From Mustelus asterias (lineage: Eukaryota), in assembly GCF_964213995.1 (NCBI RefSeq), contig NW_027590119.1, positions 992,001 to 1,056,000 on the forward strand: a stretch of DNA of 64,000 nucleotides. The letters run 5' to 3'. Of the stretch, positions 1-43,289 are shown one piece after another (the stretch's first letter is position 1; each line of letters opens with the position of its first letter). Under the pieces are notes generated by a model. That model did not search any database, was not told the DNA's origin, and saw only the letters and a program-made list of their open reading frames with translations. A program made the position numbers and the translations under genes.

Positions 1-286
1 TTGCAAAATCTCACTAACTGTCCTGTCTGGAGACAATACACATCTCTTTAACCTGTGCTTAACCCTCTCTCCACTCACATTGTCTGTACCTTTAAGACTT
101 GATGACCTGTAAAGACTCGCATTCCAACCATTATCTTGTAAATTGAGTCTGTGTCTTTATATGCCCTGTTTGTGAACAGAACTCCCACTCACCTGATGAA
201 GGGGCTTGGAACTCCGAAAGCTAGTGGCTTGTGCGACCAAATAAACCTGTTGGACTTTAACCTGGTGTTGTTAAACTTCTTACTGT
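1..286 (+). mobile_element. Penelope-like element 3' terminus (pLTR), continues off the window's left edge
   Basis: Tail CCAAATAAACCTGTTGGACTTTAACCTGGTGTTGTTAAACTTCTTACTGT recurs at ~6817, ~27494, ~40643 and ~49107; the ~40643 copy abuts a Penelope RT/GIY-YIG ORF. Confidence 0.85.
190..226 (+). ncRNA. Minimal type I hammerhead ribozyme motif
   Basis: CAC-CTGATGA-A-GGGGC ttgga ACTCC-GAAA-GC-TA-GTG: conserved core, stem II, palindromic AGCT stem III, CAC/GTG stem I; matches the known Penelope minimal hammerhead architecture. Confidence 0.75.
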
Positions 287-429
287 CCTGTCCTGGACAC
301 AGAGAGCTGGAAATCTCCATGCAGGCGGCCAAACAGATATATGTCTATCTGACTGGACTAACAATGTGTGGAATGTACAGACTGGATTCACTTCCTTTCC
401 CTTCAGTTGCTGCAAGTCCCCAATTTCCC

Positions 430-848
430 CCAGAATGAGAAAAGAAATGGAAAGGGGGAGAAAAGAAAGTGTTTTACTCACAGGAGGAAGTTTTACTCTG
501 TCCACTCCCCCAAGGCCCAGGGCTGCGCATGTCCAAGGGAGAGGGGAAGCTGCGCACGTGCGGTAGAGTGCCCACCCCCTGGTCCTTATGCTGAGGTGTT
601 GACCAATGGGGGAGTTGAAGGACCGGAAGGACTCTGGTCCTCCAGCCAATCAGAGCTCCCCATTGTCTGAATGCGGAAGTGGACAATGAGCTTGTTCAGT
701 TGCTCATTCCTGCCCAGCAAAGCTGCTGCTGCTCCCTCTCTGAATGAACATTGAGCTTCAGACAGGCTCAAACTTCCTCCTGTCTCTCCGACATCTCTGA
801 GTAAAACACTTTCTTCTCTCCCCGCTTCCATTTCTTTTCTCATTCTGG
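430..848. promoter_or_regulatory. Probable bidirectional ZNF promoter flanked by mirror-image exon1/intron1 junctions
   Basis: CCAAT boxes at ~603 and ~646, NRF1-like TGCGCATG/TGCGCACGTGCG, CGGAAGT ETS site at ~674; 430-480 and 798-848 are inverted copies containing TGA|GTAAAA donors. Confidence 0.55.
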
Positions 849-1032
849 AGTTGAATTTTTAACTTCCAGGTCACCACTCGCTGCTTCAATAAAGATCCTC
901 CTCACATTCTTCATGTTTCTCTAACCAGGTGATACAGTGTATTACACACATCATCAGTCTGCTCATTTATGTCCAATTGTAAAGCTTTAACGTGGCTGTC
1001 AGCTTGAAGATTTGCAGCTTTTTTTGTCCAGA

Positions 1033-1153
1033 ACAGGAAGCAGTGAGCATGGATCTGTCAATCAGCCTCAATCAGCACCTTCAGGAGAATTGGGAGGGTG
1101 AATATTAGATACAGCAGAGTGAGAATGGAGGGAGAGTGTGTGGGATGGAGATT
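1033..1153 (+). other. Conserved 5' micro-exon/uORF module (MDLSISLNQHLQENWE) of ZNF gene 1
   Basis: ACAG|GAAG acceptor, ATG at 1049, G|GTGAAT donor at 1098; 121/121 identical to the reverse complement of 12657-12777. Confidence 0.6.
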
Positions 1154-1447
1154 TATGATTTTTGGGGAATGAGAAAGGAAAGAATGTTCCATAGAAATTG
1201 TCTGTTCTGAATTTCTCTCCTGTACTGACACTGATGACTTTTGTAAATTCCTTTTACAGGATATCAGAGGGTGAGGATTTACAGACAGTGTTCCAGTGCG
1301 CTGAGTGTGGAAAGAACTTTAACCAGTTATACAACCTGAAAAAAACATCTCAGCATTCACAGTGGGGAGAGACTGTACCCATGTTCTGTATGTGGACGAG
1401 GCTTCAACTGATAGCCAAACCTGGAGAGTCACAAGGGCACCCGCACC

Positions 1448-2233
1448 ATGGAGAAACCGTGGAAATGTGGGGACTGTGGGAAGGGATTCAGATTCCCATC
1501 TCGGCTTGAAGTTCATCGACACATTCATACTGGGGACAGACCATTCACCTGTTGCATGTGTGGGAAGGGATTCATTCAGTCATCCGACTTGCTGACACAC
1601 CAGCAAGTTCATATCAGGGAGATGCCGTTCACCTGCAGCATGTGTGGGAAGGGATTCATTCGCTCATCCCAGCTGCTGAGTCACAATCTCTCTCACACCA
1701 GTGAGAAACCCTTCAACTGCTCTGACTGTGGGAGCGGATTCAAAAGTTCTTGGGAACTGGTGTCCCATCAACGTGTTCACACTGAGGAGAGGCCGTTCAG
1801 CTGCTCTCACTGCACAAAGAGATTTAAAAGGTCATCCAACCTGCGGGTACATCAGCGAGTTCACACTGGAGAGAAACCATTCACCTGCGCCATGTGTGGC
1901 AAGGGATTCACTGCTTCATCCAGCCTCATGAAACACAAAGGTACTCACAGCAATGAGAGACCTTTTAAATGTGCTGACTGTGGGAGCGGCTTCAAAAGTG
2001 CTGCAGTTCTTCGAGAGCATGAGCGCATTCACACTGAGGAGAGACCGTTCAGCTGCTCACAATGTTCAGTGAGGTTTAAAAGGTCATCCACGCTGCAGAG
2101 ACACCAGCGAGTTCACACTGGGGAGAAACCATTCACCTGCTCTCAATGTGGGAAGAGATTCACTCGGTCATCCGACCTGCGGAAACACCAGCGAGTTCAC
2201 ACTGGGGACAGACCGTTAAGCTGCTCTGTGTAG
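1448..2233 (+). CDS. C2H2 zinc-finger protein, 9 fingers, no effector domain visible
   Basis: ORF MEKPWKC... with CxxC-x12-HxxxH repeats and HTGE(K/R)PF linkers; acceptor TTTTACAG|G at 1259/1260; decayed fingers at 1290-1447 and 2234-3047. Confidence 0.85.
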
Positions 2234-2324
2234 AAAGTATTAACTTGGTTATCCAGCTTGCTGAAACCCAAAGTCACTCACACCAAGTAGAGACCCTTTC
2301 AATGCTCTGAATGGGGGAGTGACT

Positions 2325-2840
2325 GTGTACAGTTCTGGTCACCCGATTATAGAAAAGATATTATTAAACGAGAAAGAGTGCAGAAAAGATTTACTAGGAT
2401 GCTACCGGGACTTGATGGTTTGCGTTATAAGGAGAGGCTGGATAGACTGGGACTTGTTTCTCTGGCGCGTAGGGGGCTGAGGGGTGACCTTATAATAAGG
2501 AAAATAATAAGGGACATTGATAAGGTAGATAGTCAATATCTTTTCCCAAAGGTAGGGGAGTCTAAAACTAGAGGGCATAGGTTTAAGGTGAGAGGGGAGA
2601 GATACAAAAGGGTCCAGAGGGGCAACCTTTTCACACAGAGGGTAGTGAGTGTCTGGAACAAGATGCCAGAGGTAGTAGTAGAGGCAGGTACAATTTCGAC
2701 AGTTACATGGGTAAGATGGGTAGAAAGGGTTATGGGCCCAATGCGGGCAATTGGGACTAGCTTAGGGCTTTTAAAAAAAAGGGGGGGCATGGACAAGTTG
2801 GGCCAAAGGACCTGTTTCCATGCTGGAAAGCTCTATGACT
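2325..2840 (+). mobile_element. CR1/HER1 LINE 3' fragment inserted in decayed zinc fingers
   Basis: VQKRFTRMLPGL...TRGHRFKV..FTQRVV motifs; TGACT at both junctions; finger sequence resumes at 2841. Confidence 0.9.
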
Positions 2841-11588: not shown

Positions 11589-12011
11589 TCACTTGTGAAC
11601 TCGCTGGTGTTTCAGCAGGTGGAATGACTGAGTGAATCCCTTCCCACACACAGAGCAGGTGAATGGTCTCTCCCCAGTGTGAACTCGCTGATGTTCCCAC
11701 AGACTGGATGACGTTTTAAATCTCTTTGAGCAGTGAGAGCAGCTGAACGGTCTCTCCTCAGTGTGAATGCGCTGGTGGGACACCAGTTCTCCAGAGCTTT
11801 TGAATCCGCTCCCACAGTCAGAGCATTTAAACGGTCTCTCATTGGTGTGAGTGAGATGGTGTGTGCGCAGGTTCGATGAAACAGTGAAACCCTTCCCACA
11901 CACAGGGCAGCTGAATGGTCTCTCCCCGGTGTGAATGCGTCGATGAGTTTCCAGTGCAGATGGATATCTGAATCCTTTTACACAGTCCCCACATTTCCAC
12001 GGTTTCTCCAT
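11589..12011 (-). CDS. C2H2 zinc-finger protein, 5 fingers
   Basis: ATG at 12011 (MEKPWKC); acceptor TTACAG|GATATT at 12353/12352; decayed upstream fingers 12012-12160. Confidence 0.8.
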   Translation of the reverse strand: MEKPWKCGDCVKGFRYPSALETHRRIHTGERPFSCPVCGKGFTVSSNLRTHHLTHTNERPFKCSDCGSGFKSSGELVSHQRIHTEERPFSCSHCSKRFKTSSSLWEHQRVHTGERPFTCSVCGKGFTQSFHLLKHQRVHK

Positions 12012-12061
12012 GGTGCGGATGTCCTTGTGACTCTCCAGGTTAAACAATCAGTTAAATCTCA

Positions 12062-12169
<108 letters not shown>

Positions 12170-12656
12170 TCAGGTGTGTGTATCTCAGTGCATTTCTAGT
12201 CACAGCGATGTTTACAATCTTTTGAAGCCAAGAGGCCAAACAAACATTTCTCCTGCTAGATTCAAATCTTCAGGTCCCAAGAAATTGAGTCACTCTGTCA
12301 GATCTCGATGTGATGTTGGAGATTTCTGTCTGATTTCTCCTTGTCTAATATCCTGTAAGTCAATTTAGAAAAAACATCACAATTCAGAATACGATCGAAA
12401 TTCAAATCTACATTTCTAGTTTCTATGGAGCATTCATTAAAGACACAGTCATGGAGCATTAAACCTGCCCAGCAGGGCCTCCCGTATCAGCACACAGGCA
12501 GCTGCTTTGTGAGACTGCCAGCAGTACAGACAAGTCAGAGATAAGGGTGTCCTCAGAAGTGGGATTCATTGTGAAGGCTCAGGGACGGTTGATAAGATGT
12601 AGGAATTCTATGATTCTAATGAACATTCTTTCCTCTCTCATTCCCCAAAAGCTGTG

Positions 12657-12777
12657 AATCTCCATCCCACACACTCTCCCTCCATTCTCACTCTGCTGTA
12701 TCTAATATTCACCCTCCCAATTCTCCTGAAGGTGCTGATTGAGGCTGATTGACAGATCCATGCTCACTGCTTCCTGT
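12657..12777 (-). other. Second copy of the conserved micro-exon/uORF module
   Basis: Identical to 1033-1153; same position relative to the ZNF acceptor. Confidence 0.6.
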
Positions 12778-13735: not shown

Positions 13736-13857
13736 ATATAAACTACCCAATTCTCCTGAAGGTGCTAATTAATGCTGATCGACACTCACCATTTCATGGT
13801 TCCTGACAGATCATAAGAAATAGTTAGAAATTCAGCCCACCAAGCTGTTCAATTGAA

Positions 13858-41789: not shown

Positions 41790-43135
41790 TCACTTGTGAA
41801 CTTGCTGGTGTGTCAGCAGGTGGGCTCGCTGACTGAATCCCCTCCCACACACTGAACAGGTGAATGGCCTCTCCTGGGTGTGAACTTGCTGGTGTGTCAG
41901 CAGGTGGGCTCGCTGACTGAATCCCCTCTCACACACTGAACAGGTGAATGGCCTCTCCTGGGTGTGAACTTGCTGGTGTGTCAGCAGGTGGGCTCGCTGA
42001 CTGAATCCCCTCCCACACACTGAACAGGTGAATGGCCTCTCCTGGGTGTGAACTTGCTGGTGTGTCAGCAGGTGGGCTCGCTGACTGAATCCCCTCTCAC
42101 ACACTGAACAGGTGAATGGCCTCTCCTGGGTGTGAACTTGCTGGTGTGTCAGCAGGTGGGCTCGCTGACTGAATCCCCTCTCACACACTGAACAGGTGAA
42201 TGGCCTCTCCTGGGTGTGAACTTGCTGGTGTGTCAGCATGTGGGCTCGCTGACTGAATCCCCTCTCACACACTGAACAGGTGAATGGCCTCTCCTGGGTG
42301 TGAACTTGCTGGTGTGTCAGCAGGTGGGCTCGCTGACTGAATCCCCTCTCACACACTGAACAGGTGAATGGCCTCTCCTGGGTGTGAACTTGCTGGTGTG
42401 TCAGCAGGTGGGCTCGCTGACTGAATCCCCTCTCACACACTGAACAGGTGAATGGCATCTCCTGGGTGTGAACTTGCTGGTGTGTCAGCAGGTGGGCTCG
42501 CTGACTGAATCCCCTCTCACACACTGAACAGGTGAATGGCCTCTCCTGGGTGTGAACTTGCTGGTGTGTCAGCAGGTGGGCTCGCTGACTGAATCCCCTC
42601 TCACACACTGAACAGGTGAATGGCCTCTCCCGGGTGTGAATTCGCTGGTGTGTCAAAAGGTTGGATGAAGTTGTGAATCCTTTCTCACACATGGAACAAA
42701 CGTATGGTCTCTCGCCAGTGTGAACTCGCTGGTGTGTAAGCAGGTTTGATGAATTAGTGAATTGCTTCTCACACACAGAGCAGGTGAATGGCCTCTCCCT
42801 AGTGTGAACACGCTGGTGTGTCAGCAGCTGGGATAACTGAGTGAATCCCCTCCCACAAACAGAGCAGGTGAATGGCTTCTCTCCAGTATGAACTCTGCAG
42901 TGTATCAGAAGCTCAGATGACTGAGTGAATCCCTTCCCACACACACAACAGGGGAACGGTCTCTCGCCTGTGTGAAATCGCTGGTGTCTCAGCAGAGTGG
43001 TTGACTGAGTGAATCCCTTCCCACATACAGAGCAGGTGAATGGTTTCTCTCCAGTGTGACTGCGTCGATCAATTTCCAGCCGAGATGGATACTTGAATCC
43101 CTTTCCACAATCCCCACATTTACACGGTTTCTCTG
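41790..43135 (-). CDS. C2H2 zinc-finger gene, ~16 fingers, last 10 near-identical; family start codon lost
   Basis: Open frame from TEKPCKCGDC (ACA in place of ATG); first in-frame ATG is internal; possibly a pseudogene. Confidence 0.65.
41793..42635 (-). repeat. 10 x 84-bp coding tandem repeat
   Basis: RPFTCSVC(E/G)[19 protein letters not shown] repeated with very few nucleotide changes. Confidence 0.95.
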
Positions 43136-43289
43136 TGGTGCTGGTATCCTTGTTTCTCTCCAGGTTGGTTGATCAGTTCAAGCCTCATACACAGTACACG
43201 TGGATTCCATCTGCCAAAGTGTAACCTCTTATTTATTGTCCCCCTCCCCCATCCTCTGATGTGAACCATCCTCCAGTGGCTGAGCCAGG

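What the first reader, a model, noticed from the sequence alone, without database searches (positions are those of the whole stretch)
1033..1153. 121-bp perfectly conserved 5' module (micro-exon/uORF plus intron start) shared by diverged effector-less ZNF genes
Seen: 1033-1153 equals the reverse complement of 12657-12777 with no mismatch, whereas the coding fingers of these two paralogs differ at many positions. The block holds an acceptor (ACAG|G), an ATG reading MDLSISLNQHLQENWE, a donor (G|GTGAAT) and 56 nt of equally invariant intron. Spliced to the next acceptor the peptide stops (GY* in the minus gene, ~26 codons later in the plus gene), so it would act as a uORF, not an N-terminal domain. 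A degenerate third copy is at ~13746-13805. Inference: a family-wide cis-regulatory/translational control cassette or micropeptide for shark ZNF genes that lack KRAB; the best candidate here for an undescribed system.
Basis: partly seen in the sequence, partly recalled or inferred. Interest (0 to 1): 0.75.

Follow-up and report, generated by a model that had tools for sequence, protein, structure and literature searches.

The report
Shared intron block, shark zinc-finger genes
A 121-base stretch occurs letter for letter 415 times in this (likely shark) genome and, in the regions examined, mostly just upstream of a zinc-finger coding exon; it is likely a shared non-coding control element inside an intron, kept uniform by copying between gene copies plus selection, rather than a small protein.

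Summary
The 121/121 identity is real, but it is not pair-specific. Both copies carry the consensus of a huge C2H2 zinc-finger (ZNF) family: 415 exact copies, about 2,100-2,400 estimated. In an 864-kb census, 54 of 62 full copies lie within 2.5 kb upstream of a same-strand finger array. The block is far less diverged (2-4% from consensus) than its flanks (5-30%).

The uORF/micro-exon reading is not supported. No tested frame shows coding constraint, the ATG and GT are not spared, and RNA-like contigs join exon 1 directly to 1260 and read through the supposed donor.

Its two common variants scatter almost at random over the gene tree, with a homoplasy peak at the block, which points to localised gene conversion. 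The consensus is near-identical in organisms 5-8% diverged at a control intron, which neutral conversion does not predict. Best reading: an intronic cis-element held by selection amplified by conversion; its function is untested. The scan had no look-alike DNA on record.

The parts
1033..1153 (+). Hyperconserved block, copy 1 (family consensus); likely intronic in the 5' UTR of ZNF gene 1
   Evidence: intronic reading
12657..12777 (-). Hyperconserved block, copy 2, in ZNF gene 2
1127..1158 (+). G-rich purine core; the part also kept in an older subfamily whose 5' half differs (4 copies with homology starting at 1127)
   Evidence: G4Hunter-type maximum 1.24 here
1154..1232 (+). Shoulder of intermediate conservation (5-10% from consensus); begins with the T/C site 1154, which is shuffled across the gene tree
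1049..1051 (+).
   Evidence: 4 of 141 bases changed vs 88 of 5687 in the block
13746..13784 (-). Truncated, diverged older copy about 1 kb upstream of copy 2; similar fragments precede full copies at other loci
1260..2233 (+). ZNF exon of gene 1: acceptor at 1259/1260, decayed finger-coding leader, then ORF 1448-2233 (starts MEKPWKC, 9 fingers)
   Evidence: acceptor joined to exon 1 in related contigs
11589..12352 (-). ZNF exon of gene 2: acceptor at 12352, ORF 12011-11589 with 5 fingers
430..848 (.). Likely shared promoter/exon-1 region of gene 1 and its head-to-head partner; the inverted 54-nt arms 430-483 and 795-848 hold the exon-1 donor region of each gene
   Evidence: exon-1 end joined to 1260 in contigs
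286..331 (-). 5' flank and first bases of the partner gene's block, separated by an insertion from the exact 121-mer just left of the window

Best explanation
The block is the near-invariant segment of a zinc-finger gene family, present 415 times letter for letter, and is likely a non-coding cis-element in the 5'-UTR intron, kept uniform by localised gene conversion between paralogs acting together with weak purifying selection. Shown here: copy number, linkage to ZNF exons, the conservation peak, no coding signal in the frames tested, variants scattered over the gene tree, and a near-identical consensus in related organisms. Inferred: (1) it is spliced out in the main transcript; (2) short non-crossover conversions among about 2,000 copies pool them, so that small per-copy selection becomes efficient (theory as reviewed in PMC3924837); (3) high identity in turn keeps conversion going, while insertion-riddled flanks escape; (4) what is selected is probably a docking site for one shared regulator on DNA or nascent RNA, centred on the G-rich core 1127-1158 about 100 nt before the acceptor, giving the family common control. 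Step 4 is the weakest.
For: Linkage: 54 of 62 census copies have a same-strand finger array within 2.5 kb. Peak: 2-4% from consensus over 1033-1152, 5-10% over 1153-1232, 15-19% beyond and 11-30% upstream, in all 58 non-redundant census copies; four-fold synonymous sites differ by 0.27 between genes. Conversion: site 1069 needs 15 steps (shuffled 16.1) and site 1154 needs 30 (shuffled 34.2) on a tree of total length 9.33. On a held-out tree the observed/shuffled ratio for common variants is 0.88 in the block plus 1154 (2 sites), 0.72 (10), 0.60 (20) and 0.44 (43 and 40 sites) moving downstream, and 0.46 (15) upstream. That is a peak with both flanks still coupled. Selection: the closest census pairs differ at 38 of 1410 block sites vs 203 of 1928 held-out flank sites; pi/theta is 0.27 vs 0.43-0.61. 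Organisms A, H and E differ from G000 by 8.0, 6.3 and 4.9% at an orthologous intron, yet their listed contigs show at most 1 other letter in or at the edge of the block, where about 6, 4 and 3 are expected. Neither the block nor the rest of the intron has a CpG in the consensus, so CpG decay does not explain the contrast. Intronic.
Against: The conversion signal inside the block rests on two common sites. Rarer variants (3-7 copies) give high ratios everywhere (0.76-0.96) and do not discriminate. Copies in front of broken ORFs are not significantly more diverged (median 3 vs 1.5, p=0.18). Subfamilies with the block cut at 1120 (7 census copies) or 1143 (5) have multiplied, and breakpoints are not visibly depleted inside it, so per-copy selection is weak at best. 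The cross-species test is clear only for organism A (P about 0.002-0.013), borderline for H (0.014-0.073) and not significant for E. It uses collapsed contigs, and only 40 of 132 difference rows were shown. No binding partner or RNA has been identified. The RNA status of the runs is a guess by the tool, and the skipping contigs may come from paralogs that lack the block.
Confidence: 0.58

Rival explanations
1. A function-free conversion hot spot: the purine-rich, G-rich block attracts breaks or invasion, and biased (majority- or donor-directed) repair resets copies to the consensus.
For: Homoplasy peak. No significant difference between intact and broken genes. Truncated subfamilies thrive. 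Many unrelated insertions meet at the 5' edge. Conservation is flat and motif-less over 120 nt.
Against: Unbiased conversion does not slow the neutral rate (PMC3924837, passage read), so the consensus should have drifted between organisms 5-8% apart; it has not. A bias has to be added ad hoc.
Confidence: 0.2
2. A homology-based control hub: sense and antisense transcripts of the block feed small RNAs (piRNA/siRNA type) or a lncRNA that address all family members, so each copy is selected to match the majority.
For: Flat, frame-less and structure-less conservation of about 120 nt. Head-to-head and mixed orientations in dense clusters. Stasis across species.
Against: There are no small-RNA data and contigs give no strand. 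It does not by itself explain the scatter of variants over the tree.
Confidence: 0.1
3. One reading: an included micro-exon whose uORF or micropeptide tunes ZNF translation.
For: AG, ATG and GT are present, and most census copies still read the same short peptide. A rarely included cassette exon would be missed by contigs.
Against: No synonymous bias, ATG and GT not spared, recurrent -10/-11 deletions, intron half equally invariant, variable C-terminus (18 vs 42 aa), skipping joints and unspliced read-through.
Confidence: 0.08
4. A young transposon, a simple recent duplication, or an assembly artefact.
For: Star-like variant spectrum. Seven loci, the window's own among them, match gene 1 at 99-100% over 2.7 kb.
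Against: Fixed position upstream of ZNF exons. No terminal repeats or target-site duplication bounding the block. Block divergence barely tracks the divergence of the rest of the gene. The same sequence is in runs labelled with 8 organisms.
Confidence: 0.04

Closest known systems
Mouse V1R subfamily promoter 'peaks' (PMC1955453, passages read)
   Same: Non-coding stretch conserved among paralogs to coding-like levels, too long and unbroken for single factor sites; the authors propose conversion that keeps a family equally responsive to common factors.
   Different: Here about 120 nt in an intron, not the promoter, at variable distance from exon 1. It is far more conserved than the coding region, spans about 2,000 copies on several contigs, and is shared between species.
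Zebrafish NLR-B30.2 family on chr4 (bioRxiv 10.1101/022061, passages read)
   Same: Large clustered fish family in which conversion homogenises only part of each gene.
   Different: There the homogenised parts are coding domains in 368 genes; here a short non-coding segment, with the coding fingers diverging.
Selection amplified by gene conversion in multigene families (review PMC3924837, passages read)
   Same: Predicts slower evolution of constrained sites, self-reinforcing identity, and escape after TE insertion, as seen here.
   Different: The review's example has coding regions homogenised and non-coding regions escaping; here it is the reverse.
KRAB-ZNF and FiNZ-ZNF families (PMC10547256: search listing, abstract start, term search; exon layout recalled)
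   Same: Huge clustered tandem C2H2 families with a conserved upstream part and fast-evolving fingers.
   Different: Their conserved upstream part is a coding effector exon; here the conserved part shows no coding signal and the ORF starts just before the first intact finger.
Poison or cassette exons in ultraconserved elements of splicing regulators (recalled, no call)
   Same: Conservation straddles an exon-like/intron-like border.
   Different: Those are single-locus and orthologous; here splice dinucleotides are not spared and no inclusion was seen.

Membership tests
Conserved-peptide uORF / micropeptide | Synonymous excess in the peptide frame | tested here: not met
   6/17/1 vs 5.3/17.1/1.6 expected (47 of 58 copies); also none in the +2 frame or the 44-aa antisense ORF
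Conserved-peptide uORF / micropeptide | Start codon and frame preferentially kept | tested here: not met
   ATG 4 of 141 vs 88 of 5687; length changes in 11 of 83 copies, four of -10/-11
Conserved-peptide uORF / micropeptide | Present in mature mRNA and translated | tested here: inconclusive
   skipping joints in 2 of 4 runs, no inclusion joint among 15 of 18 shown; contigs only; no Ribo-seq
Localised concerted evolution by gene conversion | Segment much more alike among paralogs than flanks and synonymous sites | tested here: met
Localised concerted evolution by gene conversion | Variants incongruent with the gene tree, peaking at the segment with flanks still coupled | tested here: met
   (two common sites at the block, gradient outside)
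Localised concerted evolution by gene conversion | Species-specific consensus (paralogs closer than orthologs) | tested here: not met
   consensus near-identical in organisms A, C, E, H despite 5-8% intron divergence in A, E, H; neutral concerted evolution alone is insufficient
KRAB-ZNF | KRAB domain upstream of the fingers | tested here: inconclusive
   none among the families shown for the window ORFs, none in block frames; 0 genome matches but the control rang nowhere; distant upstream exons not examined
Intronic snoRNA / structured ncRNA | Rfam match or stable fold | tested here: not met
   0 matches at E<=1; z = +1.58 and +1.21
Transposon (MITE/SINE) | Dispersed insertion with terminal repeats, target-site duplication or tail | tested here: not met
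   (3 regions); no repeat library could be searched
Cis-regulatory element (enhancer / splicing enhancer / RNA target) | Binds a factor or changes expression or splicing | not testable with these tools
   needs reporter, ChIP/CLIP or small-RNA data

The most novel reading that the evidence does not exclude
The block is a family-wide address label: one small-RNA pool or regulator reads the same 120 bases in about 2,000 effector-less ZNF genes, and localised gene conversion keeps the label readable while the fingers diversify. That would be a sequence-identity-based control system for a KRAB-less ZNF repertoire.
Probability: 0.15. Interest if true: 0.85.

Novelty: new variant of a known kind. 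Interest (0 to 1): 0.58.

Why it matters
It exposes a roughly 2,000-member effector-less ZNF family in which the most constrained sequence is non-coding. That reverses the pattern of KRAB- and FiNZ-type families, where (as recalled) a coding effector exon is the conserved part. It gives one short, uniform handle for asking how such a repertoire is co-regulated, and for counting and annotating the family. It is also an unusually large natural test of selection amplified by gene conversion. No description turned up in six full-text searches; the library lacks most subscription journals, and supplements were not opened.

Tried and rejected
Coding in the ZNF-phase frame (+2): 10/29/1 vs 11.1/26.7/2.2 expected; rejected.

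Antisense 44-aa ORF at 1192-1058 with a hydrophobic tail: 33/63/1 vs 28.9/67.3/0.9, and a start or full length was not recovered in many copies. It has no Pfam match and one unnamed database hit; rejected.

Structured RNA or snoRNA: rejected.

Crossover or shuffling point between promoter halves and finger halves: linkage across the block (r2 0.07-0.10) is like that within the ZNF exon leader (0.09-0.14), so not supported.

Depletion of insertions inside the block: not seen. Greater decay before broken ORFs: p=0.18. Contig depth was not used to rank parts.

Calibration attempts: no mitochondrial COX1 in G000. The GAPDH loci looked at had short exons, one with a long tandem repeat, and were not used. 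At the TPT1 control locus, run X16 (organism G) gave only repeat fragments, and the coding exon in the stretch had no cover in any run. The genome KRAB search was uninformative.

Papers searched by term without a relevant passage: PMC10547256 (0 hits for shark or chondrichth) and PMC10620051 (0 for zinc finger). PMC8455134 only notes KRAB enrichment among families lost in cartilaginous fishes. The two earlier scan notes concern fungi and did not bear on this.

Full report
Observation. Window 1033-1153 equals the reverse complement of 12657-12777 with no mismatch, inside a 93% alignment of 1021-1196. The two finger ORFs (1448-2233 plus strand, 9 fingers; 12011-11589 minus strand, 5 fingers) are 70% identical in DNA over 140 codons. 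The third copy aligns at 13746-13784. That the host is a shark is inferred from a run label and from my recall of the MEKPWKC start in shark ZNF annotations; no call names the species.

Scale. The 3.68-Gb genome holds 415 exact 121-mers, 1,228 exact copies of a 36-mer from the exon-like half and 1,201 of a 40-mer from the intron-like half; the reversed controls give 0. I counted every copy in 864 kb of contiguous cluster DNA (regions chosen at clusters, no filter within them): 106 finger arrays, 62 full blocks and 33 3'-half-only copies. Of the 62 full blocks, 54 have a same-strand array within 2.5 kb, and 54 of 106 arrays have a full block. Scaling the exact counts by census fractions gives 2,058-2,402 copies (an extrapolation). 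Ten of 58 non-redundant census copies equal the consensus, so the window pair is simply two consensus copies. Seven fetched loci, the window's own included, match gene 1 at 99-100% over 2.7 kb. Such duplicates were collapsed for the divergence profile, frame tests and diversity values (and part of 52) but kept for the close-pair and tree analyses (and part of 52).

Conservation profile. In all 58 copies, mismatch to consensus is 2-4% per 10-nt bin over 1033-1152, 5-10% over 1153-1232, 15-19% to the acceptor and 11-30% upstream. In 26 census genes, median pairwise distance is 0.033 (exon-like half) and 0.018 (intron-like half), against 0.13-0.40 in the other regions; four-fold synonymous sites differ by 0.27 across 83 genes. 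Diversity is 0.028 against 0.115-0.23 in 40 of 58 copies. Eighteen were dropped for more than 12 block differences or poor exon alignment, which lowers the block value. Block distance hardly changes (mean 0.03-0.05) as the rest of the gene goes from 10% to over 30% diverged.

Not coding. Distinct variants in 47 of 58 copies match neutral expectation in the uORF frame (6/17/1 vs 5.3/17.1/1.6), in the frame in phase with the fingers (10/29/1 vs 11.1/26.7/2.2) and in a 44-aa antisense ORF that I noticed (33/63/1 vs 28.9/67.3/0.9). The ATG (4 of 141 bases) and GT (2 of 94) change no less often than the block average (88 of 5687). Eleven of 83 copies have length changes, four of them -10/-11 between the two 9-nt direct repeats. 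There is no Rfam match and no stable fold on either strand.

Probably intronic. Four runs were laid on 560-1560 (assembled contigs, three guessed to be RNA, one of unknown kind). Runs X1 and X9 each have a contig that joins the exon-1 end (776/779 plus 16-17 paralog letters) to 1260 and skips the block. Contigs in all four runs cross 1097/1098 unspliced, though X18 and one X9 piece start only 12-15 nt before it. No 1097-1260 joint is among the 15 of 18 shown. These contigs come from paralogs in other organisms, so rare inclusion is not excluded.

Why so uniform: conversion. The two common variants at the block, 1069 C/G (17 of 119) and 1154 T/C (41 of 117), need 15 and 30 parsimony steps on the ZNF-exon tree, against 16.1 and 34.2 for shuffled labels. 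The tree totals only 9.33 substitutions per site, so recurrent mutation cannot easily supply this. On a held-out tree, common variants give observed/shuffled ratios of 0.88 (block plus 1154, 2 sites), 0.72 (1155-1215, 10 sites), 0.60 (to the acceptor, 20), 0.44 (exon leader, 43 and 40) and 0.46 upstream (15). Six of 83 leader sites reach 0.85; both block sites do. Upstream and downstream flanks stay coupled, which fits non-crossover conversion rather than crossing over. Rare variants do not discriminate (0.76-0.96 everywhere).

Why so uniform: selection. Neutral conversion leaves the long-run neutral rate unchanged (PMC3924837, passage). All 9 sampled words of the block occur in runs labelled with 8 organisms (12 rows are flagged as possible sources of this DNA). 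At the orthologous last intron of TPT1, organisms A, H and E differ from G000 at 86 of 1069, 30 of 473 and 6 of 122 letters. Yet their listed block contigs show at most one other letter in or at the edge of 1033-1153, and organism C shows none in 1034-1155. Net expectations are 6.3, 4.3 and 2.6 differences; P(<=1) is 0.013, 0.073 and 0.27. The 12 closest census pairs differ at 2.7% in the block against 10.5-11.1% in the flanks, and the spectrum is star-like (pi/theta 0.27). Against strong per-copy selection: broken-ORF genes are not significantly more diverged (p=0.18), truncated subfamilies have multiplied, and breakpoints occur inside the block.

Mechanism. The simplest joint reading is weak purifying selection on a non-coding sequence, made efficient by conversion that pools about 2,000 copies, with identity in turn sustaining conversion (theory reviewed in PMC3924837). 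What is selected is untested. I favour a docking site for a shared regulator centred on the G-rich core 1127-1158, the part retained in an older subfamily.

Comparison. It works like the conversion-homogenised V1R promoters (PMC1955453, passages) and the partly homogenised zebrafish NLR-B30.2 genes (10.1101/022061, passages). It differs in being a short intronic segment that is far more conserved than the coding region and static across species. It fails the tests for conserved-peptide uORF, snoRNA and transposon; absence of KRAB is not proven. Six literature searches listed no description of the block. Supplements were not read, and those of PMC10547256 may tabulate shark ZNF counts. The scan had no look-alike DNA on record.

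Verdict. A real and much larger feature than reported, with the proposed uORF mechanism not supported. New variant of a known kind; interest 0.58.

Noticed in passing
window 1260-1447 and family alignment: The ZNF exon opens with about 360 nt (family consensus; shorter in gene 1) of decayed finger-coding sequence carrying two family-wide in-frame TGA codons before the MEKPWKC start, suggesting the family lost its N-terminal coding part and restarted downstream.
   Followed up: partly
window 797-798: Gene 1 reads CT where the family has the GT of the exon-1 donor, so its own splicing may differ from the family's.
   Followed up: no
block 5' edge, window-equivalent 1008-1052: Many unrelated flanks and insertions meet at this edge: 19 of 99 left-break clusters in bins 1013-1052 and 9 of 81 right-break clusters in bin 1033-1052; a possible insertion hot spot.
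   Followed up: partly
window 1-2700 and L001-L007: Gene 1 and its head-to-head partner form a unit found at 7 loci (the window's own included) on different contigs at 99-100% identity: recent segmental duplication or uncollapsed haplotypes.
   Followed up: no
census regions C23, C71, C87: Finger arrays occur about every 8 kb (106 in 864 kb); 24 of 58 block-carrying loci have a broken or absent ORF by my crude criterion.
   Followed up: partly
window 41793-43172 (minus): A 15-finger ORF whose last 10 fingers are near-identical tandem repeats: recent intragenic amplification.
   Followed up: no
window 1060-1110, minus strand: The antisense strand reads like a branch point, pyrimidine tract and AG; no antisense splicing was seen among the joints shown.
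   Followed up: partly
first fingers, family alignment: The first coding fingers are more decoupled from the adjacent leader (F 0.34) than the leader parts are from each other (0.12-0.14), hinting at finger exchange between paralogs.
   Followed up: no
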